Shown: positions 8,139 through 56,699 of the stretch, one piece after another
Layout of the letters: each line of letters opens with the position of its first letter
Numbering within the stretch: the first letter of the stretch is position 1
NCBI RefSeq assembly: GCF_044324785.1
Contig: NZ_CP172127.1
Length of the DNA: 64,000 nt
Origin: Escherichia coli
GTDB taxonomy: Bacteria; Pseudomonadota; Gammaproteobacteria; Enterobacterales; Enterobacteriaceae
Reading direction: 5' to 3' (one strand)
Program-made: the position numbers and the translations under genes
Notes under the pieces: model-generated
Told to the model about the DNA's origin: nothing
Database searches by the model: none
The model's input: the letters and a program-made list of their open reading frames with translations, nothing else

Positions 8139-10040
8139 ATGAAACTACAGAACTCTTTTCGCGACTATACGGCAGAGTCCGCGCTGTTTGTGCGCCGGGC
8201 GCTGGTCGCCTTTTTGGGGATTTTGCTGCTGACCGGCGTGCTTATCGCCAACCTGTATAATCTGCAAATTGTTCGCTTTACCGATTACCAGACCCGCTCT
8301 AATGAAAACCGCATTAAGCTGGTGCCTATCGCGCCCAGCCGCGGCATTATCTACGACCGTAACGGTATCCCTCTGGCCCTCAACCGCACTATCTACCAGA
8401 TAGAAATGATGCCGGAGAAAGTCGATAACGTGCAGCAAACGCTGGACGCTCTGCGCAGCGTGGTTGATCTGACCGATGACGATATTGCTGCATTCCGAAA
8501 AGAGCGTGCACGCTCACACCGTTTCACCTCCATTCCGGTGAAAACTAACCTGACCGAAGTACAAGTGGCGCGCTTTGCCGTCAATCAGTACCGTTTTCCG
8601 GGTGTCGAAGTTAAAGGCTATAAACGTCGTTACTATCCTTACGGTTCGGCGTTGACCCACGTCATCGGCTATGTGTCGAAAATCAACGATAAAGACGTCG
8701 AACGCCTGAATAATGACGGCAAACTGGCCAACTATGCAGCAACGCATGATATCGGTAAGCTGGGCATTGAGCGTTACTATGAAGATGTGCTGCACGGTCA
8801 GACCGGTTATGAAGAGGTTGAAGTTAACAACCGTGGGCGTGTTATTCGCCAGTTAAAAGAAGTACCACCGCAAGCCGGACACGATATTTACCTGACGCTG
8901 GATCTCAAACTCCAGCAATATATTGAAACGCTGCTGGCGGGTAGCCGCGCAGCGGTGGTAGTCACCGATCCGCGTACAGGTGGGGTGCTGGCGCTGGTTT
9001 CCACGCCTAGTTATGACCCAAACCTGTTTGTTGACGGTATCTCCAGCAAAGATTATTCCGCCTTGCTGAACGACCCGAATACACCGCTGGTGAACCGCGC
9101 CACACAGGGGGTTTATCCTCCCGCGTCTACAGTTAAACCCTATGTGGCGGTTTCGGCATTGAGCGCCGGAGTGATCACGCGCAATACGACGCTGTTTGAC
9201 CCAGGCTGGTGGCAACTGCCAGGTTCGGAAAAACGTTATCGTGACTGGAAAAAATGGGGCCACGGGCGTCTGAATGTCACAAGATCGCTGGAAGAATCTG
9301 CGGATACCTTCTTCTATCAGGTGGCCTACGATATGGGGATCGATCGCCTCTCCGAATGGATGGGTAAATTCGGTTATGGTCATTACACCGGTATCGACCT
9401 GGCGGAAGAACGTTCCGGCAACATGCCTACCCGCGAATGGAAACAGAAACGCTTTAAAAAACCGTGGTATCAGGGTGACACCATTCCGGTTGGTATCGGT
9501 CAGGGTTACTGGACAGCGACCCCAATCCAGATGAGTAAGGCACTGATGATCCTGATTAATGACGGTATCGTGAAGGTTCCGCATTTGCTGATGAGCACCG
9601 CCGAAGACGGCAAACAGGTGCCATGGGTACAGCCGCATGAACCGCCCGTCGGCGATATTCATTCCGGTTACTGGGAGCTGGCGAAAGACGGTATGTACGG
9701 TGTTGCTAACCGCCCTAACGGTACAGCGCATAAATACTTTGCCAGCGCACCGTACAAAATTGCGGCGAAATCTGGTACCGCTCAGGTCTTCGGTCTGAAA
9801 GCGAACGAAACCTATAATGCGCACAAAATTGCCGAGCGTTTACGTGACCACAAACTGATGACTGCCTTTGCGCCATACAACAATCCGCAAGTGGCTGTCG
9901 CCATGATTCTGGAGAACGGTGGCGCGGGTCCAGCGGTTGGTACGCTGATGCGCCAGATCCTCGACCACATTATGCTGGGTGATAACAACACCGATCTGCC
10001 TGCGGAAAATCCAGCGGTTGCCGCAGCGGAGGACCATTAA
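8139..10040 (+). CDS. mrdA: Penicillin-binding protein 2 (elongasome transpeptidase)
   Basis: 633 aa; N-terminal TM segment; transpeptidase motifs STVK and KSGTA. Confidence 0.95.
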
Positions 10041-10042
10041 TC

Positions 10043-11155
10043 ATGACGGATAATCCGAATAAAAAAACATTCTGGGATAAAGTCCATCTCGATCCCACAA
10101 TGCTGCTGATCTTACTGGCATTGCTGGTTTACAGCGCCCTGGTTATCTGGAGCGCCAGCGGTCAGGATATTGGCATGATGGAGCGTAAAATCGGCCAAAT
10201 CGCGATGGGTCTGGTCATCATGGTGGTGATGGCGCAAATTCCTCCACGCGTTTATGAAGGCTGGGCCCCCTATCTCTATATCATCTGTATTATTTTGCTG
10301 GTGGCGGTAGATGCTTTTGGTGCCATCTCTAAAGGCGCTCAACGCTGGCTGGATCTCGGTATCGTTCGTTTTCAGCCGTCGGAAATTGCCAAAATAGCCG
10401 TACCACTGATGGTAGCGCGCTTTATCAACCGCGACGTTTGCCCGCCGTCGTTGAAGAACACAGGCATCGCGCTGGTACTGATATTTATGCCCACGCTGCT
10501 GGTGGCTGCGCAGCCTGACCTGGGGACATCAATCCTCGTTGCGCTTTCCGGTCTGTTTGTACTGTTCCTCTCTGGCCTTAGCTGGCGTCTGATTGGCGTC
10601 GCAGTAGTGCTGGTGGCGGCGTTCATTCCTATTCTGTGGTTCTTCCTGATGCATGATTACCAGCGCCAGCGCGTAATGATGCTCCTGGACCCGGAATCAG
10701 ACCCACTCGGCGCGGGCTATCATATTATTCAGTCTAAAATTGCTATTGGCTCCGGTGGATTACGCGGCAAAGGCTGGCTGCACGGTACTCAGTCACAGCT
10801 TGAATTTCTCCCCGAACGCCATACCGACTTTATCTTCGCGGTACTGGCGGAAGAGCTGGGATTAGTGGGCATTTTGATTCTGCTCGCTCTCTACATTCTG
10901 CTGATCATGCGCGGGCTGTGGATAGCCGCCAGAGCGCAAACCACCTTTGGTCGCGTCATGGCTGGCGGCTTAATGCTGATATTATTCGTTTATGTCTTCG
11001 TAAATATTGGTATGGTAAGCGGTATTCTGCCGGTTGTAGGGGTTCCGCTCCCACTGGTCAGTTATGGAGGATCGGCGCTAATTGTGCTGATGGCTGGGTT
11101 CGGGATTGTAATGTCAATCCACACCCACAGGAAAATGTTGTCGAAAAGCGTGTAA
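10043..11155 (+). CDS. mrdB: Peptidoglycan glycosyltransferase RodA (SEDS family)
   Basis: 370 aa polytopic membrane protein immediately after mrdA. Confidence 0.95.
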
Positions 11156-11165
11156 GAGGTGCGCA

Positions 11166-12254
11166 ATGCGTAAGCAGTGGCTCGGGATCTGCATCGCGGC
11201 AGGAATGCTCGCGGCATGTACAAGCGATGATGGTCAGCAACAGACGGTAAGTGTACCGCAGCCTGCGGTATGTAACGGCCCCATAGTTGAAATTAGCGGG
11301 GCGGACCCGCGTTTCGAACCACTGAACGCGACGGCAAATCAGGATTACCAGCGCGACGGTAAAAGCTACAAAATCGTGCAGGATCCGTCTCGATTTAGCC
11401 AGGCGGGACTGGCGGCAATCTATGATGCCGAACCCGGCAGTAACCTGACGGCCTCTGGCGAAGCATTCGATCCGACACAGCTGACAGCGGCCCATCCAAC
11501 GCTTCCGATCCCCAGCTACGCCAGAATCACTAACCTGGCTAACGGACGAATGATCGTGGTGCGCATTAATGATCGCGGTCCTTACGGCAACGACCGCGTT
11601 ATTTCGCTTTCTCGCGCGGCAGCTGACCGTCTTAACACGTCAAACAACACCAAAGTTCGTATCGATCCGATTATTGTCGCCCAGGATGGTTCGCTTTCTG
11701 GTCCTGGTATGGCCTGTACCACAGTTGCCAAACAGACTTACGCCCTGCCTGCACCTCCCGATTTAAGCGGTGGCGCGGGAACAAGTTCAGTGTCTGGCCC
11801 GCAGGGTGACATTCTTCCGGTCAGTAATTCGACGCTAAAAAGCGAAGATCCGACCGGCGCGCCGGTAACCAGCAGCGGTTTCCTCGGTGCACCAACGACG
11901 TTAGCGCCTGGTGTGCTGGAAGGCAGCGAACCAACACCTGCGCCACAGCCCGTTGTTACAGCCCCCTCGACAACGCCTGCAACCTCGCCTGCAATGGTGA
12001 CACCGCAAGCCGCCTCACAAAGCGCCAGCGGCAACTTTATGGTGCAAGTCGGGGCCGTTAGCGATCAGGCTCGTGCGCAACAGTACCAACAGCAACTGGG
12101 ACAGAAGTTCGGCGTCCCCGGTCGCGTAACTCAAAATGGCGCAGTCTGGCGGATCCAGCTTGGCCCATTCGCCAGCAAAGCCGAAGCCAGTACCTTGCAG
12201 CAACGTTTGCAAACCGAAGCCCAATTACAGTCATTTATTACCACCGCGCAGTAG
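11166..12254 (+). CDS. rlpA: Septal ring lytic transglycosylase RlpA (lipoprotein, SPOR domain)
   Basis: 362 aa; lipobox LAAC; Pro/Thr/Ser-rich linker; C-terminal SPOR-like region. Confidence 0.93.
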   Translation: MRKQWLGICIAAGMLAACTSDDGQQQTVSVPQPAVCNGPIVEISGADPRFEPLNATANQDYQRDGKSYKIVQDPSRFSQAGLAAIYDAEPGSNLTASGEAFDPTQLTAAHPTLPIPSYARITNLANGRMIVVRINDRGPYGNDRVISLSRAAADRLNTSNNTKVRIDPIIVAQDGSLSGPGMACTTVAKQTYALPAPPDLSGGAGTSSVSGPQGDILPVSNSTLKSEDPTGAPVTSSGFLGAPTTLAPGVLEGSEPTPAPQPVVTAPSTTPATSPAMVTPQAASQSASGNFMVQVGAVSDQARAQQYQQQLGQKFGVPGRVTQNGAVWRIQLGPFASKAEASTLQQRLQTEAQLQSFITTAQ

Positions 12255-12393
12255 CGTAAAGCAGGCATCTGATGTGTCAATTTCTGTAAATGACGTTAAC
12301 AAAGTCACGCGGAAAGTCAGATGCCTGCCGGTAGTGCATTTGCTATAGTAGGGCACTTTTTTTAATTCCATCACGGATGTCGTAGTTCAGACC

Positions 12394-13605
12394 ATGAATA
12401 CCATTTTTTCCGCTCGTATCATGAAGCGCCTGGCGCTCACCACGGCTCTTTGCACAGCCTTTATCTCTGCTGCACATGCCGATGACCTGAATATCAAAAC
12501 TATGATCCCGGGTGTACCGCAGATCGATGCGGAGTCCTACATCCTGATTGACTATAACTCCGGCAAAGTGCTCGCCGAACAGAACGCAGATGTCCGCCGC
12601 GATCCTGCCAGCCTGACCAAAATGATGACCAGTTACGTTATCGGCCAGGCAATGAAAGCCGGTAAATTTAAAGAAACTGATTTAGTCACCATCGGCAACG
12701 ACGCATGGGCCACCGGTAATCCGGTATTTAAAGGTTCTTCGCTGATGTTCCTCAAACCGGGCATGCAGGTTCCGGTTTCTCAGCTGATCCGCGGTATTAA
12801 CCTGCAATCGGGTAACGATGCTTGCGTCGCCATGGCCGATTTTGCCGCTGGTAGCCAGGACGCTTTTGTTGGCTTGATGAACAGCTACGTTAACGCCCTG
12901 GGCCTGAAAAATACCCACTTCCAGACGGTACATGGTCTGGATGCTGATGGTCAGTACAGCTCCGCGCGAGATATGGCGCTGATCGGCCAGGCGTTGATCC
13001 GTGACGTACCGAATGAATACTCGATCTATAAAGAAAAAGAATTTACGTTTAACGGTATTCGCCAGCTGAACCGTAACGGTCTGTTATGGGATAACAGCCT
13101 GAATGTCGACGGCATCAAAACCGGACACACTGACAAAGCAGGTTACAACCTTGTTGCTTCTGCGACTGAAGGCCAGATGCGCTTGATCTCTGCGGTGATG
13201 GGCGGACGTACTTTTAAAGGCCGTGAAGCCGAAAGTAAAAAACTGCTGACCTGGGGCTTCCGTTTCTTCGAAACCGTTAACCCACTGAAAGTAGGTAAAG
13301 AGTTCGCCTCTGAACCGGTTTGGTTTGGTGATTCTGATCGCGCTTCGTTAGGTGTTGATAAAGACGTGTATCTGACCATTCCGCGTGGCCGCATGAAAGA
13401 TCTGAAAGCCAGCTATGTGCTGAACAGCAGTGAATTGCATGCGCCGCTGCAAAAGAATCAGGTCGTCGGTACTATCAACTTCCAGCTTGATGGCAAAACG
13501 ATCGAACAACGCCCGCTGGTTGTGCTGCAAGAAATCCCGGAAGGCAACTTCTTCGGCAAAATCATTGATTACATTAAATTAATGTTCCATCACTGGTTTG
13601 GTTAA
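12394..13605 (+). CDS. dacA: D-alanyl-D-alanine carboxypeptidase PBP5
   Basis: 403 aa; signal peptide; SLTK, SGN and KTGHT active-site motifs. Confidence 0.95.
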
Positions 13606-13654
13606 AAATCGAACACTTGAAAGTGTAATTTCCGTCCCCATATACTAAGCATCA

Positions 13655-13695
13655 GTAAAAAACTCCCGCCTTCTGGCGGGAGTTGCTATTTAATT
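13655..13695 (+). terminator. Intrinsic terminator downstream of dacA
   Basis: GC stem ACTCCCGCC/GGCGGGAGT with a 5-nt loop, then a T-rich tail. Confidence 0.6.
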
Positions 13696-13714
13696 ACGTT
13701 ACGCCGGAGCTGAC

Positions 13715-13978
13715 ATGAAAACCAAACTTAACGAACTGCTTGAATTCCCTACTCCTTTTACTTACAAAGTTATGGGGCAGGCGTTACCTGAGCTGGTTGA
13801 TCAGGTGGTTGAAGTGGTACAGCGCCATGCGCCAGGTGACTACACCCCAACGGTAAAACCAAGCAGCAAAGGCAACTACCACTCGGTATCTATCACTATC
13901 AACGCCACTCATATCGAGCAGGTTGAAACACTGTATGAAGAACTGGGTAAAATCGATATTGTCCGCATGGTTCTGTAA
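13715..13978 (+). CDS. ybeD: UPF0250/DUF493 protein YbeD
   Basis: 87 aa; conserved position between dacA and lipB. Confidence 0.9.
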
Positions 13979-14080
13979 CTCGCTTCTCCGTTACCCGGCT
14001 CCTGGTCGGGTAACTCCCCTCTCCTCGCTGTGATATACTTTTCCCCCCCACTTTTACTCATTCTCCACGGAGATGCCGTT

Positions 14081-14722
14081 TTGTATCAGGATAAAATTCT
14101 TGTCCGCCAGCTCGGTCTTCAGCCTTACGAGCCAATTTCCCAGGCTATGCATGAATTCACCGATACCCGCGATGATAGTACCCTTGATGAAATCTGGCTG
14201 GTCGAGCACTATCCGGTATTCACCCAAGGGCAGGCAGGAAAAGCGGAGCACATTTTAATGCCGGGTGATATTCCGGTGATTCAGAGCGATCGCGGTGGGC
14301 AGGTGACTTATCACGGGCCGGGGCAACAGGTGATGTATGTGTTGCTTAACCTGAAACGCCGTAAACTCGGTGTGCGTGAACTGGTGACCTTGCTTGAGCA
14401 AACAGTGGTGAATACCCTGGCTGAACTGGGTATAGAAGCGCATCCTCGGGCTGACGCGCCTGGTGTCTATGTCGGGGAAAAGAAAATTTGCTCACTGGGT
14501 TTACGTATTCGACGCGGTTGTTCATTCCACGGTCTGGCATTAAACGTCAATATGGATCTTTCACCATTTTTACGTATTAATCCTTGTGGGTATGCCGGAA
14601 TGGAAATGGCTAAAATATCACAATGGAAACCCGAAGCGACGACTAATAATATTGCACCACGTTTACTGGAAAATATTTTAGCGCTACTAAACAATCCTGA
14701 CTTCGAATATATTACCGCTTAA
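14081..14722 (+). CDS. lipB: Octanoyltransferase LipB
   Basis: ORF track 14030..14722 trimmed to the in-frame TTG giving [10 protein letters not shown] and 213 aa; start assignment is from memory of the E. coli protein. Confidence 0.88.
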
Positions 14723-17109: not shown

Positions 17110-17147
17110 TCCTGTAATAATTACTTACATCTGTCTGATAAAAAACC

Positions 17148-17180
17148 CGCTTTTTGAAGCGGGTTTTTTGTATCGAACAA
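17148..17180. terminator. Bidirectional intrinsic terminator between convergent lipA and tatE
   Basis: AAAAAACCCGC-TTTTTGAA-GCGGGTTTTTT: hairpin flanked by an A-run and a T-run. Confidence 0.8.
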
Positions 17181-37129: not shown

Positions 37130-37336
37130 AAGATAATTCATGGATGGTTGAAATATATCCCTATTTTTCAACCATCCTAAAAAAGCATGAATTGCTCGCT
37201 CTGCCCTAAGTGGCTGTGCTATTTTAGAAAAACTTAATTCTGAATTAAGCAAAAAAACATAATACAAATAAATACAACAGCAACATTATTGATCAAGTGA
37301 ATGATTTATAGAAGAGATAATATAACGGAGTATGTT

Positions 37337-56495: not shown

Positions 56496-56666
56496 GGGGT
56501 ATAACCTGAAAATGAGTCCAATAGGGGGAAATCTCCACGGCGCTCACTTTACCAGTTGGTGAGAATTATCCGAAGCTGAAGTTTGTAAATTACTCCCACT
56601 GAATGCAACATTCACTCTATTTCAGAGAAATACCTACCAAATTTATAAATTAAACAAATGATAAAC

Positions 56667-56699
56667 CCATAATTATTTTCTGTAATTATGGGTTTATAG
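56667..56699. terminator. AT-rich hairpin between fepE start and entF end
   Basis: AACCCATAATTAT-tttctgt-AATTATGGGTT. Confidence 0.5.

What the first reader, a model, noticed from the sequence alone, without database searches (positions are those of the whole stretch)
12255..12393. Long-range 12-bp inverted repeat in the rlpA-dacA spacer
GCAGGCATCTGA at about 12262..12273 is repeated as its reverse complement TCAGATGCCTGC at about 12318..12330 with a spacer of roughly 45 nt, followed by GGGCACTTTTTTT. This could be a large-loop terminator or processing structure at the end of the rsfS-rlpA operon, or an operator in the dacA promoter region.
Basis: seen in the sequence. Interest (0 to 1): 0.25.

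Follow-up and report, generated by a model that had tools for sequence, protein, structure and literature searches.

The report
rlpA 3'-end hairpin overlapping dacA promoter
The inverted repeat is real and forms a conserved RNA stem-loop that marks and probably protects the 3' end of the rlpA transcript while one of its arms doubles as the -35 region of the dacA promoter; this is a tidy but ordinary piece of operon punctuation.

Summary
The 12-bp inverted repeat exists (arms 12261-12272 and 12317-12328, 12/12 complementary, 44 nt apart). It is the outer helix of a ~68-nt stem-loop starting 7 nt after the rlpA stop codon in E. coli (-32.4 kcal/mol, z = -6.8).

The pairing is kept in all 49 Enterobacteriaceae species examined, with compensatory changes and a G-U over A-C bias. 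That points to a sense-strand RNA structure.

Published K-12 Term-seq places a strong sense-strand RNA 3' end 10-11 nt past the stem (window 12338/12339) and none at the T-run. Published TSS mapping places the dacA start at A12355. So 'GGGCACTTTTTTT' is the dacA +1 and early transcribed T-run, not a terminator tail. The 3' arm covers the dacA -35 hexamer ATGCCT, and the loop holds dacA promoter-upstream DNA.

Best reading: a stem-loop that defines and protects the 3' end of rlpA-operon transcripts, interleaved with the dacA promoter. The 3' end is most likely made by processing. It is not a canonical intrinsic terminator and not an operator.

Novelty: a new, unnamed member of a known kind. Interest is modest (about 0.3).

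The parts
11166..12254 (+). rlpA coding sequence (stop TAG 12252-12254), last gene of the upstream unit mrdA 8139-10040, mrdB 10043-11155, rlpA
   Evidence: ORF list; RefSeq annotation under the match and in K-12
12261..12273 (+). 5' arm of the long-range helix (12 Watson-Crick pairs plus a U-G at 12273/12316). It is variable in sequence between species but always complementary to the 3' arm. Position -94 to -82 relative to the dacA TSS.
   Evidence: structure; covariation
12274..12315 (+). Interior of the stem-loop. Inner helices 12281-12287/12309-12315 and 12291-12294/12304-12307. Contains blocks conserved across Enterobacteriaceae (TGTCA, TGTAAA, CATTAACAAA, AAAGTC), which lie at -81 to -40 of the dacA TSS, i.e. 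promoter-upstream DNA.
   Evidence: fold; conserved columns in alignments A1/A4
12316..12328 (+). 3' arm of the long-range helix, conserved in sequence (GTCRGATGCCTGC). It contains the dacA -35 hexamer ATGCCT (12321-12326). Position -39 to -27 relative to the dacA TSS.
   Evidence: arm classes; -35 assignment from PMC9338883
12338..12339 (+). Mapped RNA 3' ends of sense transcripts (...CCGGUAGUGCA / ...GCAU), 10-11 nt past the base of the stem, inside the dacA promoter spacer.
   Evidence: Adams et al. 2021 Term-seq, MG1655 664018(-) score 91306 and 664017(-) score 41794. Coordinates transferred through the K-12/window alignment.
12341..12349 (+). Extended -10 element of the dacA promoter, TGcTATAGT (hexamer 12344-12349). 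Nearly invariant across 80 Enterobacterales loci.
12355..12355 (+). dacA transcription start site (A of GGGCA).
   Evidence: Kim et al. 2012 supplementary TSS table: 336 reads, 38-nt 5' UTR in K-12 (39 nt here because of T7); upstream sequence ends ...TTTGCTATAGTAGGGCA
12357..12363 (+). T7 run, +3 to +9 of dacA mRNA (T6 in K-12 and BL21). This is not the tail of a terminator.
   Evidence: no Term-seq 3' end there
12333..12357 (+). Weak second hairpin (AGUGC-A-UUUGC / GUAGG-GCACU) that spans the -10 and TSS. About -8 kcal/mol, not clearly above chance, and its form is not conserved between genera.
   Evidence: z about -1.7 to -2.1; species folds
12355..12393 (+). dacA 5' UTR, with the highly conserved block CACGGATGTCGT (12375-12386) and no canonical Shine-Dalgarno sequence near the ATG.
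12394..13605 (+). dacA (PBP5) coding sequence.
12255..12255 (-). Minor antisense RNA 3' end, 6 nt past the same hairpin read on the other strand (...GCCUGCUUUACG).
   Evidence: Adams et al. 2021, MG1655 664101(+), scores 1166-1788

Best explanation
The inverted repeat is the outer helix of a ~68-nt RNA stem-loop in the 3' untranslated tail of rlpA, the last gene of the mrdA-mrdB-rlpA transcription unit. Transcripts from upstream run into the rlpA-dacA spacer and the stem-loop forms. The mature RNA ends 10-11 nt past its base. I infer this end is made by processing: either 3'-to-5' exonucleases trim back until the stable helix stops them, or RNase E cuts at GCA|UUUG. The helix then protects the upstream RNA. 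The same DNA carries the dacA promoter. The loop holds promoter-upstream sequence, the 3' arm is the -35 region, and the extended -10 (TGcTATAGT) and start site (A12355) lie just downstream. Because promoter function pins the 3' arm, the 5' arm has evolved to stay complementary to it. Shown: the structure, its conservation and covariation, the 3' end position, and the dacA TSS. Inferred: how the 3' end is made, and that the helix stabilises rlpA-operon mRNA.
For: Structure: MFE -32.4 kcal/mol, z = -6.8 on the sense strand; the 126-nt context gives z = -4.0. Conservation without any alignment: in all 49 Enterobacteriaceae spacers the MFE fold pairs the first 40 nt after the stop codon with the -35 region (13-24 long-range pairs; median z = -4.3; 48/49 below -2). 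Covariation: each species' 5' region pairs better with its own 3' arm than with other species' arms (-24.1 vs -19.4 kcal/mol; 0 of 10,000 permutations; composition-shuffled 5' regions -11.1). On the covariance-model alignment of 44 species, 11 of 17 pairs show changes on both sides (57 cells), and the covariation score is 0.228 against 0.134 for shuffles (0/500) and at most 0.090 for slid registers. Examples: GGCACC/GGTGCC, TCCGA/TCGGA, ACTGGCA/TGCCAGT. Strand: G-U 63 vs A-C/C-A 18; sense fold more stable in 37/49 species, p = 0.0014 without phylogenetic correction. Experiment: Term-seq 3' ends at window 12338/12339, scores 91306 and 41794, the same order as the ybeD terminator (73288) and SroC (84415) on that strand; no listed Rho-termination region nearby; no 3' end at the T-run. 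dacA TSS at A12355. -35 ATGCCT and -10 TATAGT are as published, and the fragment starting just after the -35 hexamer drives GFP. Only one TSS is listed between rlpA's own promoter and dacA, so the 3' end most simply belongs to rlpA-operon transcripts. Adams et al. attribute 3' ends that are neither intrinsic nor Rho-dependent to RNA processing.
Against: No experiment seen here shows which enzyme makes the 3' end, or that the helix affects rlpA mRNA stability. A 10-11 nt overhang fits exonuclease stalling only from my general knowledge, not from a test. The Term-seq data are from K-12, not this O157-like strain, although the aligned region is identical except for the T-run. Term-seq scores may not compare between strands or conditions. 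RNAalifold predicted no pairs on the gappy 44-sequence model alignment, though it did predict the helix on the 16-sequence MAFFT alignment. The covariation counts use an alignment fitted to the structure, and neither permutation test corrects for phylogeny. The strong conservation of the loop and 3' arm could reflect an RNA-level function rather than promoter DNA.
Confidence: 0.6

Rival explanations
1. The stem-loop is a genuine but non-canonical transcription terminator. The nascent hairpin stops RNA polymerase about 10 nt downstream, possibly helped by NusA/NusG or a pause. This insulates the dacA promoter from read-through out of the mrdAB-rlpA unit.
For: A strong 3' end lies close to the stem, with no listed Rho-dependent region. 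A second, weaker 3' end lies 6 nt past the same hairpin on the other strand, as at bidirectional terminators. Some more distant genera (Rahnella, Hafnia, Edwardsiella, Erwinia persicina) carry a compact GC-rich short-loop hairpin followed by a T-rich stretch at the same place (sequences and folds), suggesting the position needs a 3'-end signal.
Against: There is no U-tract after the stem (CGGUAGUGCAU). The loop is 44 nt. The 3' end lies 10-11 nt from the stem rather than 7-9 nt inside a U-run. The consensus scan finds no terminator here. It also did not score the distant-genus hairpins as terminators.
Confidence: 0.2
2. The hairpin-capped tail of rlpA is a stable RNA with a job of its own: a 3'-UTR-derived small RNA or a protein-binding decoy. 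Its conserved 44-nt interior would carry the function.
For: The Term-seq score is of the same order as SroC on the same strand. Blocks inside the loop are conserved across Enterobacteriaceae.
Against: No 5' end or separate TSS is known. There is no U-tail for Hfq. rlpA and dacA are absent from the supplement of a RIL-seq-based sRNA prediction study. There is no Rfam match. No paper in the library links rlpA to a 3' UTR small RNA. The loop is replaced by unrelated sequence in Erwiniaceae and Serratia while the helix persists. Loop conservation is equally explained by dacA promoter-upstream DNA.
Confidence: 0.1
3. The repeat works at the DNA level, either as a two-half-site operator for a dimeric regulator of dacA (BolA is reported to bind this promoter region) or as a cruciform that modulates the -35 region.
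For: The 3' arm covers the -35 hexamer. BolA is reported to bind the dacA promoter region, and its published core GCCAG is one mismatch from GCCTG in the arm, and exact in several genera.
Against: The 5' arm is not conserved in sequence or register, only in complementarity. G-U is tolerated 3.5 times more often than A-C, which is meaningless for DNA or protein recognition. The half-sites are 56 bp centre to centre. A 44-nt loop strongly disfavours cruciform extrusion (general knowledge). The BolA motif has very low information content (P = 6e-3 in the source).
Confidence: 0.04
4. Chance complementarity with no function.
For: About 0.5 such 12-mers are expected per 64 kb, and 30% of simulated windows contain one.
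Against: Pairing is conserved with compensatory changes in 49/49 species, and an RNA 3' end is mapped next to the stem.
Confidence: 0.02

Closest known systems
Protective 3' stem-loops at processed mRNA ends (as described for Rho-terminated transcripts trimmed by 3'-5' exonucleases; Dar & Sorek 2018, PMC6061677, as cited by Adams et al. 2021)
   Same: A stable stem-loop in a 3' UTR without a U-tract. The mapped 3' end lies a short distance past the stem. The end is sharp and strong although no intrinsic terminator is present.
   Different: No Rho-dependent region was listed at this site. The loop is unusually long because it houses the next gene's promoter-upstream DNA. The 3' arm doubles as a -35 region.
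Intrinsic (Rho-independent) terminator
   Same: A hairpin at the end of a transcription unit with an RNA 3' end nearby. In some distant genera a compact GC hairpin occupies the same place.
   Different: There is no U-tract, the loop is 44 nt, and the 3' end is 10-11 nt from the stem in non-U sequence. The T-run further downstream belongs to the dacA transcript.
REP/BIME extragenic palindromes acting as mRNA stabilisers (e.g. malE-malF; from general knowledge)
   Same: An intergenic palindrome within or at the end of an operon that can block exonucleases.
   Different: Single copy per genome. No REP consensus. Syntenic and covarying rather than a dispersed repeat.
Bidirectional terminators (Ju et al. 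2019 SEnd-seq; from general knowledge)
   Same: 3' ends are mapped just past the same hairpin on both strands.
   Different: The genes here are co-directional, not convergent. The antisense end is 25-80 times weaker. There are no flanking A and U tracts.
Palindromic operator overlapping a -35 element
   Same: One arm overlaps the -35 hexamer of dacA.
   Different: The other arm is 56 bp away, and is conserved only in complementarity, not in sequence.

Membership tests
Intrinsic terminator | GC-rich stem with a short loop (about 3-8 nt) | tested here: not met
   44 nt lie between the arms, partly filled by inner helices. The consensus scan finds no site on the + strand in 11800-12800.
Intrinsic terminator | U-tract immediately 3' of the stem | tested here: not met
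   The sequence after the stem is CGGTAGTGCAT. The T7 run starts 29 nt after the stem and is +3..+9 of dacA mRNA.
Intrinsic terminator | RNA 3' end inside the U-tract, 7-9 nt from the stem | tested here: not met
   Term-seq ends lie 10-11 nt from the stem at ...GUGCA/U, and none is listed at the T-run.
Intrinsic terminator | Factor-independent release in vitro | not testable with these tools
   Needs in vitro transcription.
Protective 3' stem-loop at a processed end | Thermodynamically stable stem-loop in the 3' UTR | tested here: met
   -32.4 kcal/mol, z = -6.8. The stem starts 7 nt after the rlpA stop codon.
Protective 3' stem-loop at a processed end | Mapped RNA 3' end a few nt downstream of the stem | tested here: met
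   Published Term-seq: +10/+11 nt, in two growth conditions.
Protective 3' stem-loop at a processed end | Pairing maintained by selection (covariation) | tested here: met
Protective 3' stem-loop at a processed end | 3' end depends on exonucleases or RNase E, and the stem prolongs mRNA half-life | not testable with these tools
   Needs RNase mutants and decay measurements.
Protective 3' stem-loop at a processed end | Upstream Rho-dependent termination feeding the trimming | tested here: inconclusive
   No Rho-termination region near 6639xx-6640xx in Adams et al. supplementary file 2. The authors note that Rho sites are under-detected.
Palindromic operator | Both half-sites conserved in sequence | tested here: not met
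   The 3' arm is conserved. The 5' arm is variable in sequence and register.
Palindromic operator | Cognate regulator shown to bind both arms | not tested
   There is only a literature statement that BolA binds the dacA promoter region, plus a low-information motif.
REP/BIME or other dispersed repeat | Many copies per genome | tested here: not met
   Median one place per genome in 5424 E. coli genomes.
Any Rfam RNA family | Match at or above the gathering score | tested here: not met
   The best overlapping match is MIR477 at 16.4 bits against a gathering score of 65, E = 8.1.
3'-UTR-derived small RNA | Discrete short transcript with a defined 5' end | tested here: inconclusive
   A strong 3' end is present. 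No TSS is listed between the rlpA promoter and the dacA TSS. No Northern or 5'-processing data were seen.
3'-UTR-derived small RNA | Association with Hfq or ProQ, or target chimeras | tested here: inconclusive
   rlpA and dacA are absent from the supplement of one RIL-seq-based sRNA prediction study. The primary RIL-seq tables were not available.
Sigma-70 extended -10 promoter (for the TATAGT / GGGCAC-T7 segment) | TGn + -10 hexamer with a mapped TSS 5-8 nt downstream | tested here: met
   TGcTATAGT at 12341-12349; TSS at A12355 with 336 reads; a fragment lacking the -35 hexamer drives GFP.

The most novel reading that the evidence does not exclude
The hairpin-capped rlpA tail is not just a decay-resistant end. 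It could be an abundant, conserved RNA species with its own role, such as a 3'-UTR-derived regulator or protein decoy using the conserved loop. Or the nascent hairpin could couple read-through from the elongasome operon (mrdA-mrdB-rlpA) to activity of the dacA (PBP5) promoter, whose -35 region it is made from.
Probability: 0.1. Interest if true: 0.55.

Novelty: new member of a known kind. Interest (0 to 1): 0.3.

Why it matters
It corrects the local map. The rlpA-operon transcript ends at a conserved stem-loop, and the T-run belongs to dacA mRNA. It explains an 'orphan' Term-seq peak that had been filed as a possible dacA 5'-UTR event. It also gives a clean example of one DNA segment under two constraints: the -35 region of one gene and an RNA helix arm of the previous one, with the free arm evolving to follow the constrained arm. 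Practically, people who engineer the dacA promoter or insert cassettes between rlpA and dacA (as in PMC9338883) will cut this structure. It opens no long-standing question.

Tried and rejected
1. Rfam scan of 11000-14200 at E <= 10: only three chance-level matches.
2. Consensus promoter/terminator scan: nothing in the spacer on the + strand. The promoter is missed because its -35 is poor.
3. Plain MAFFT alignment of 49 spacers: the 5' arm is out of register, so it cannot be used for pair counting. I replaced it with a covariance-model alignment and with alignment-free tests.
4. RNAalifold on the model alignment A4 returned zero pairs. I attribute this to gap columns splitting the 5' arm, since it found the helix on A2, but it remains a negative result from an independent predictor.
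5. I repeated it with a tighter E-value cut-off to keep only sense hits.
6. Supplements looked up without result: PMC8848933, PMC4681348, PMC6061677, PMC5145812, PMC9023263 (none held, or no mention of these genes). The Klebsiella TSS in PMC3415461 was not retrievable.
7. Literature searches linking rlpA or dacA to sRNA, UTR, ProQ, Hfq or CpxR: nothing relevant.
8. CpxR-box resemblance in the loop (GTAAA-N5-TTAAC) and BolA-core resemblance in the arm (GCCTG vs GCCAG): kept as untested leads only.
9. RNase III substrate: rejected because the mapped end lies outside the helix.
10. Roadblock by promoter-bound polymerase: rejected because the end lies at -17/-16, inside the footprint of a promoter complex rather than upstream of it (reasoning only).
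11. The terminator scan of Rahnella and Hafnia spacers did not score their compact GC hairpins, so the 'replaced by a canonical terminator' argument rests on sequence inspection only.

Full report
**What and where.** The window is E. coli: 100% identical to O157:H7 and other strains over 12240-12400, and the segment is present at >=95% identity and single copy in 5424 of 5426 complete genomes. On the + strand lie mrdA (8139-10040), mrdB (10043-11155), rlpA (11166-12254), a 139-nt spacer, dacA (12394-13605), then ybeD and lipB.

**The observation.** The reported repeat is real. Its arms are 12261-12272 (GCAGGCATCTGA) and 12317-12328 (TCAGATGCCTGC), 12/12 complementary with 44 nt between them. 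GGGCACTTTTTTT lies at 12351-12363, 22 nt after the 3' arm.

**Is it more than chance?**
- A perfect 12-mer inverted repeat with a loop of up to 100 nt is expected about 0.5 times per 64 kb, and 30% of simulated windows contain one. The repeat alone proves little.
- The whole element does better. Region 12259-12330 folds into one stem-loop: a 13-pair outer helix plus inner helices of 7 and 4 pairs, at -32.4 kcal/mol. Dinucleotide shuffles give -14.2 +/- 2.7, so z = -6.8.
- The reverse strand folds at -25.7 kcal/mol, z = -4.65.
- A second hairpin at 12333-12357, just before the T-run, is weak: -8.1 kcal/mol, z about -2.

**Conservation.**
- A protein-guided scan with DacA returned 80 loci from different Enterobacterales species, all with rlpA upstream. 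In Enterobacteriaceae the spacer length is nearly fixed at 135-153 nt.
- Folding each of the 49 Enterobacteriaceae spacers alone always pairs the first 40 nt after the rlpA stop codon with the segment 9-34 nt upstream of the -10 element. There are 13-24 long-range pairs per species. Median MFE is -27.3 kcal/mol and median z is -4.3; 48 of 49 are below -2.
- The 3' arm is conserved in sequence (GTCRGATGCCWG). The 5' arm differs in sequence and register but stays complementary.
- In an alignment-free test, each species' 5' region pairs with its own 3' arm at -24.1 kcal/mol on average, against -19.4 for other species' arms. None of 10,000 permutations reached the observed value. Composition-shuffled 5' regions give -11.1.
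- I built a covariance model on 16 in-register sequences and used it to align 44 species. On that alignment, 11 of 17 pairs change on both sides (57 cells). The covariation score is 0.228, against 0.134 for shuffles (0/500) and at most 0.090 for slid registers.
- Examples of compensation: GGCACC/GGTGCC, TCCGA/TCGGA, and ACTGGCA/TGCCAGT in place of GCAGGCA/TGCCTGC.
- Caveats: that alignment is fitted to the structure; RNAalifold on it predicted nothing, although it found the helix on the 16-sequence MAFFT alignment; and none of the tests corrects for phylogeny.
- Beyond Enterobacteriaceae, comparable pairing to the same ATGCC region is present in Serratia, Mixta and part of Erwinia/Pantoea (-18 to -28 kcal/mol). 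It is weak or absent in Hafnia, Rahnella, Edwardsiella and most Pantoea.
- Several genera that lack it show a compact GC-rich short-loop hairpin followed by a T-rich stretch right after rlpA. The simple terminator scan did not score these hairpins.

**RNA or DNA, and which strand?** In the helix, G-U pairs outnumber A-C/C-A mismatches 63 to 18. The sense-strand fold is the more stable in 37 of 49 species. Together with a freely varying 5' arm, this points to pairing in the sense transcript. It argues against two protein half-sites and against a DNA cruciform.

**Experimental anchors from the literature.**
- *TSS.* Kim et al. 2012 list one dacA TSS with 336 reads and a 38-nt 5' UTR. Its upstream sequence ends ...TTTGCTATAGTAGGGCA. 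In the window this is A12355. K-12 has T6 where the window has T7.
- *Promoter.* It has the extended -10 TGcTATAGT (12341-12349) and the poor -35 ATGCCT (12321-12326), as stated in PMC9338883. In that study a fragment beginning just after the -35 hexamer still drove GFP. The 3' arm of the repeat therefore covers the -35 region (-39 to -27). The loop is dacA promoter-upstream DNA (-81 to -40). The T-run is +3 to +9 of dacA mRNA.
- *3' ends.* Adams et al. 2021 list Term-seq 3' ends at MG1655 664018(-) (score 91306) and 664017(-) (score 41794), classed 'orphan', 54 nt upstream of the dacA ATG.
- *Coordinate mapping.* Their printed sequences run from -50 to +10 around the end. I checked this against the cspE terminator row and by counting from the dacA ATG in the K-12 sequence. 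The ends are A12338 and U12339, 10-11 nt past the base of the stem and 16-17 nt upstream of the dacA TSS.
- *What is absent.* The curated lists show no 3' end at the T-run and no Rho-termination region nearby.
- *Antisense.* A much weaker antisense 3' end (1166-1788) lies 6 nt past the same hairpin on the other strand.
- *Origin of the end.* No TSS other than rlpA's own (142 nt upstream of rlpA) and dacA's is listed. The sense 3' end therefore most simply belongs to transcripts coming from upstream.

**How it most likely works.**
- *Shown:* a conserved sense-strand RNA stem-loop directly after rlpA; an RNA 3' end just beyond it; and the dacA promoter interleaved with it.
- *Inferred:* the end is a processed one. 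No U-tract follows the stem (CGGUAGUGCAU) and the loop is long, so this is not a canonical intrinsic terminator. Adams et al. attribute ends that are neither intrinsic nor Rho-dependent to RNase processing.
- Two routes fit. Transcripts that extend further could be trimmed 3'-to-5' until the helix stops the exonuclease; an overhang of about 10 nt is in the range I recall for RNase II and PNPase stalling (general knowledge). Alternatively, RNase E could cut in the single-stranded A|UUUG, and the helix would then protect the upstream product.
- The uneven conservation of the arms follows naturally. Promoter function pins the 3' arm, and the 5' arm tracks it.
- I give this model 0.6.
- *Rivals:* a non-canonical true terminator that insulates the dacA promoter (0.2); a stable RNA with its own function (0.1); a DNA-level operator or cruciform (0.04); chance (0.02).

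**Comparison with known elements.**
- The element works like the protective stem-loops described at processed 3' ends of bacterial mRNAs, and it meets the features of that class that could be tested here.
- It fails the defining features of an intrinsic terminator (short loop, adjacent U-tract, end within the U-tract).
- It also fails those of a REP-type repeat (single copy), a palindromic operator (half-site conservation) and every Rfam family.
- I found no paper that names or discusses this element. Its 3' end appears only as an unannotated row in a Term-seq table.

**Verdict.** The 'terminator with GGGCAC-T7 tail' and the 'operator' readings are not. This is a new, unnamed member of a known kind. 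Its mildly interesting twist is that one RNA helix arm doubles as the next gene's -35 region. Interest 0.3.

Noticed in passing
window 12375-12393: The dacA 5' UTR has no recognisable Shine-Dalgarno sequence near the ATG. It does carry a block, CACGGATGTYGT, that is highly conserved (core GGA invariant) in the 49 aligned Enterobacteriaceae spacers and also visible in the more distant genera printed. The block contains a tiny ORF: ATG TCG TAG in E. coli, ATG TCG TTG TTC TGA in Enterobacter and relatives. It ends 2-9 nt before the dacA start, which suggests coupling or a protein/sRNA site. PMC9338883 doubled PBP5 activity by inserting an SD sequence here.
   Followed up: no
window 12357-12363: The T-run at +3..+9 of dacA mRNA is length-polymorphic within E. 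coli: T7 in the window and O157, T6 in K-12 and BL21. It is interrupted in several genera. A homopolymeric T-run this close to +1 is the kind of sequence where reiterative transcription occurs (general knowledge); this was not examined.
   Followed up: no
L059 2152-2501 (MAG Enterobacterales bin_230): The rlpA-dacA spacer is 348 nt because roughly 210 bp are inserted exactly between TGTTATA and TATAGT of the dacA -10 region, separating the hairpin and -35 from the -10. The insert ends (TATACTCGTCGCACTTCAGG...) resemble ERIC/IRU element termini as I recall them; this was not tested.
   Followed up: no
window 12255, minus strand: Published Term-seq lists a weak antisense RNA 3' end (MG1655 664101(+), score 1166-1788) 6 nt past the same hairpin read on the opposite strand. 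The origin of this antisense transcript is unknown.
   Followed up: partly
window 12285-12299: The loop contains GTAAA-N5-TTAAC, conserved as TGTAAA...CATTAACAAA across Enterobacteriaceae. It resembles a CpxR box (GTAAA-N5-GTAAA, from memory) centred about 63 bp upstream of the dacA TSS. No literature link between CpxR and dacA was found.
   Followed up: partly
window 12321-12328 and the equivalent position in L033-L048: The -35 region reads GCCTG in E. coli and GCCAG in Cedecea, Buttiauxella and related genera. The published BolA ChIP core is GCCAG, and BolA is reported to bind the dacA promoter region. The motif has low information content, so this is a lead only.
   Followed up: partly
window 17140-17169, 37142-37177, 56661-56697: These are the only other perfect inverted repeats of at least 12 bp with loops up to 100 nt in the window. 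The first (AAAAAACCCGCTT...AAGCGGGTTTTTT) looks like a bidirectional intrinsic terminator. The others were not examined.
   Followed up: no
window ~10904 (MG1655 664555 in NC_000913.2 coordinates): Kim et al. list an rlpA-specific TSS 142 nt upstream of rlpA, inside mrdB, with 88 reads. Part of rlpA transcription is therefore independent of the mrdAB promoter.
   Followed up: no
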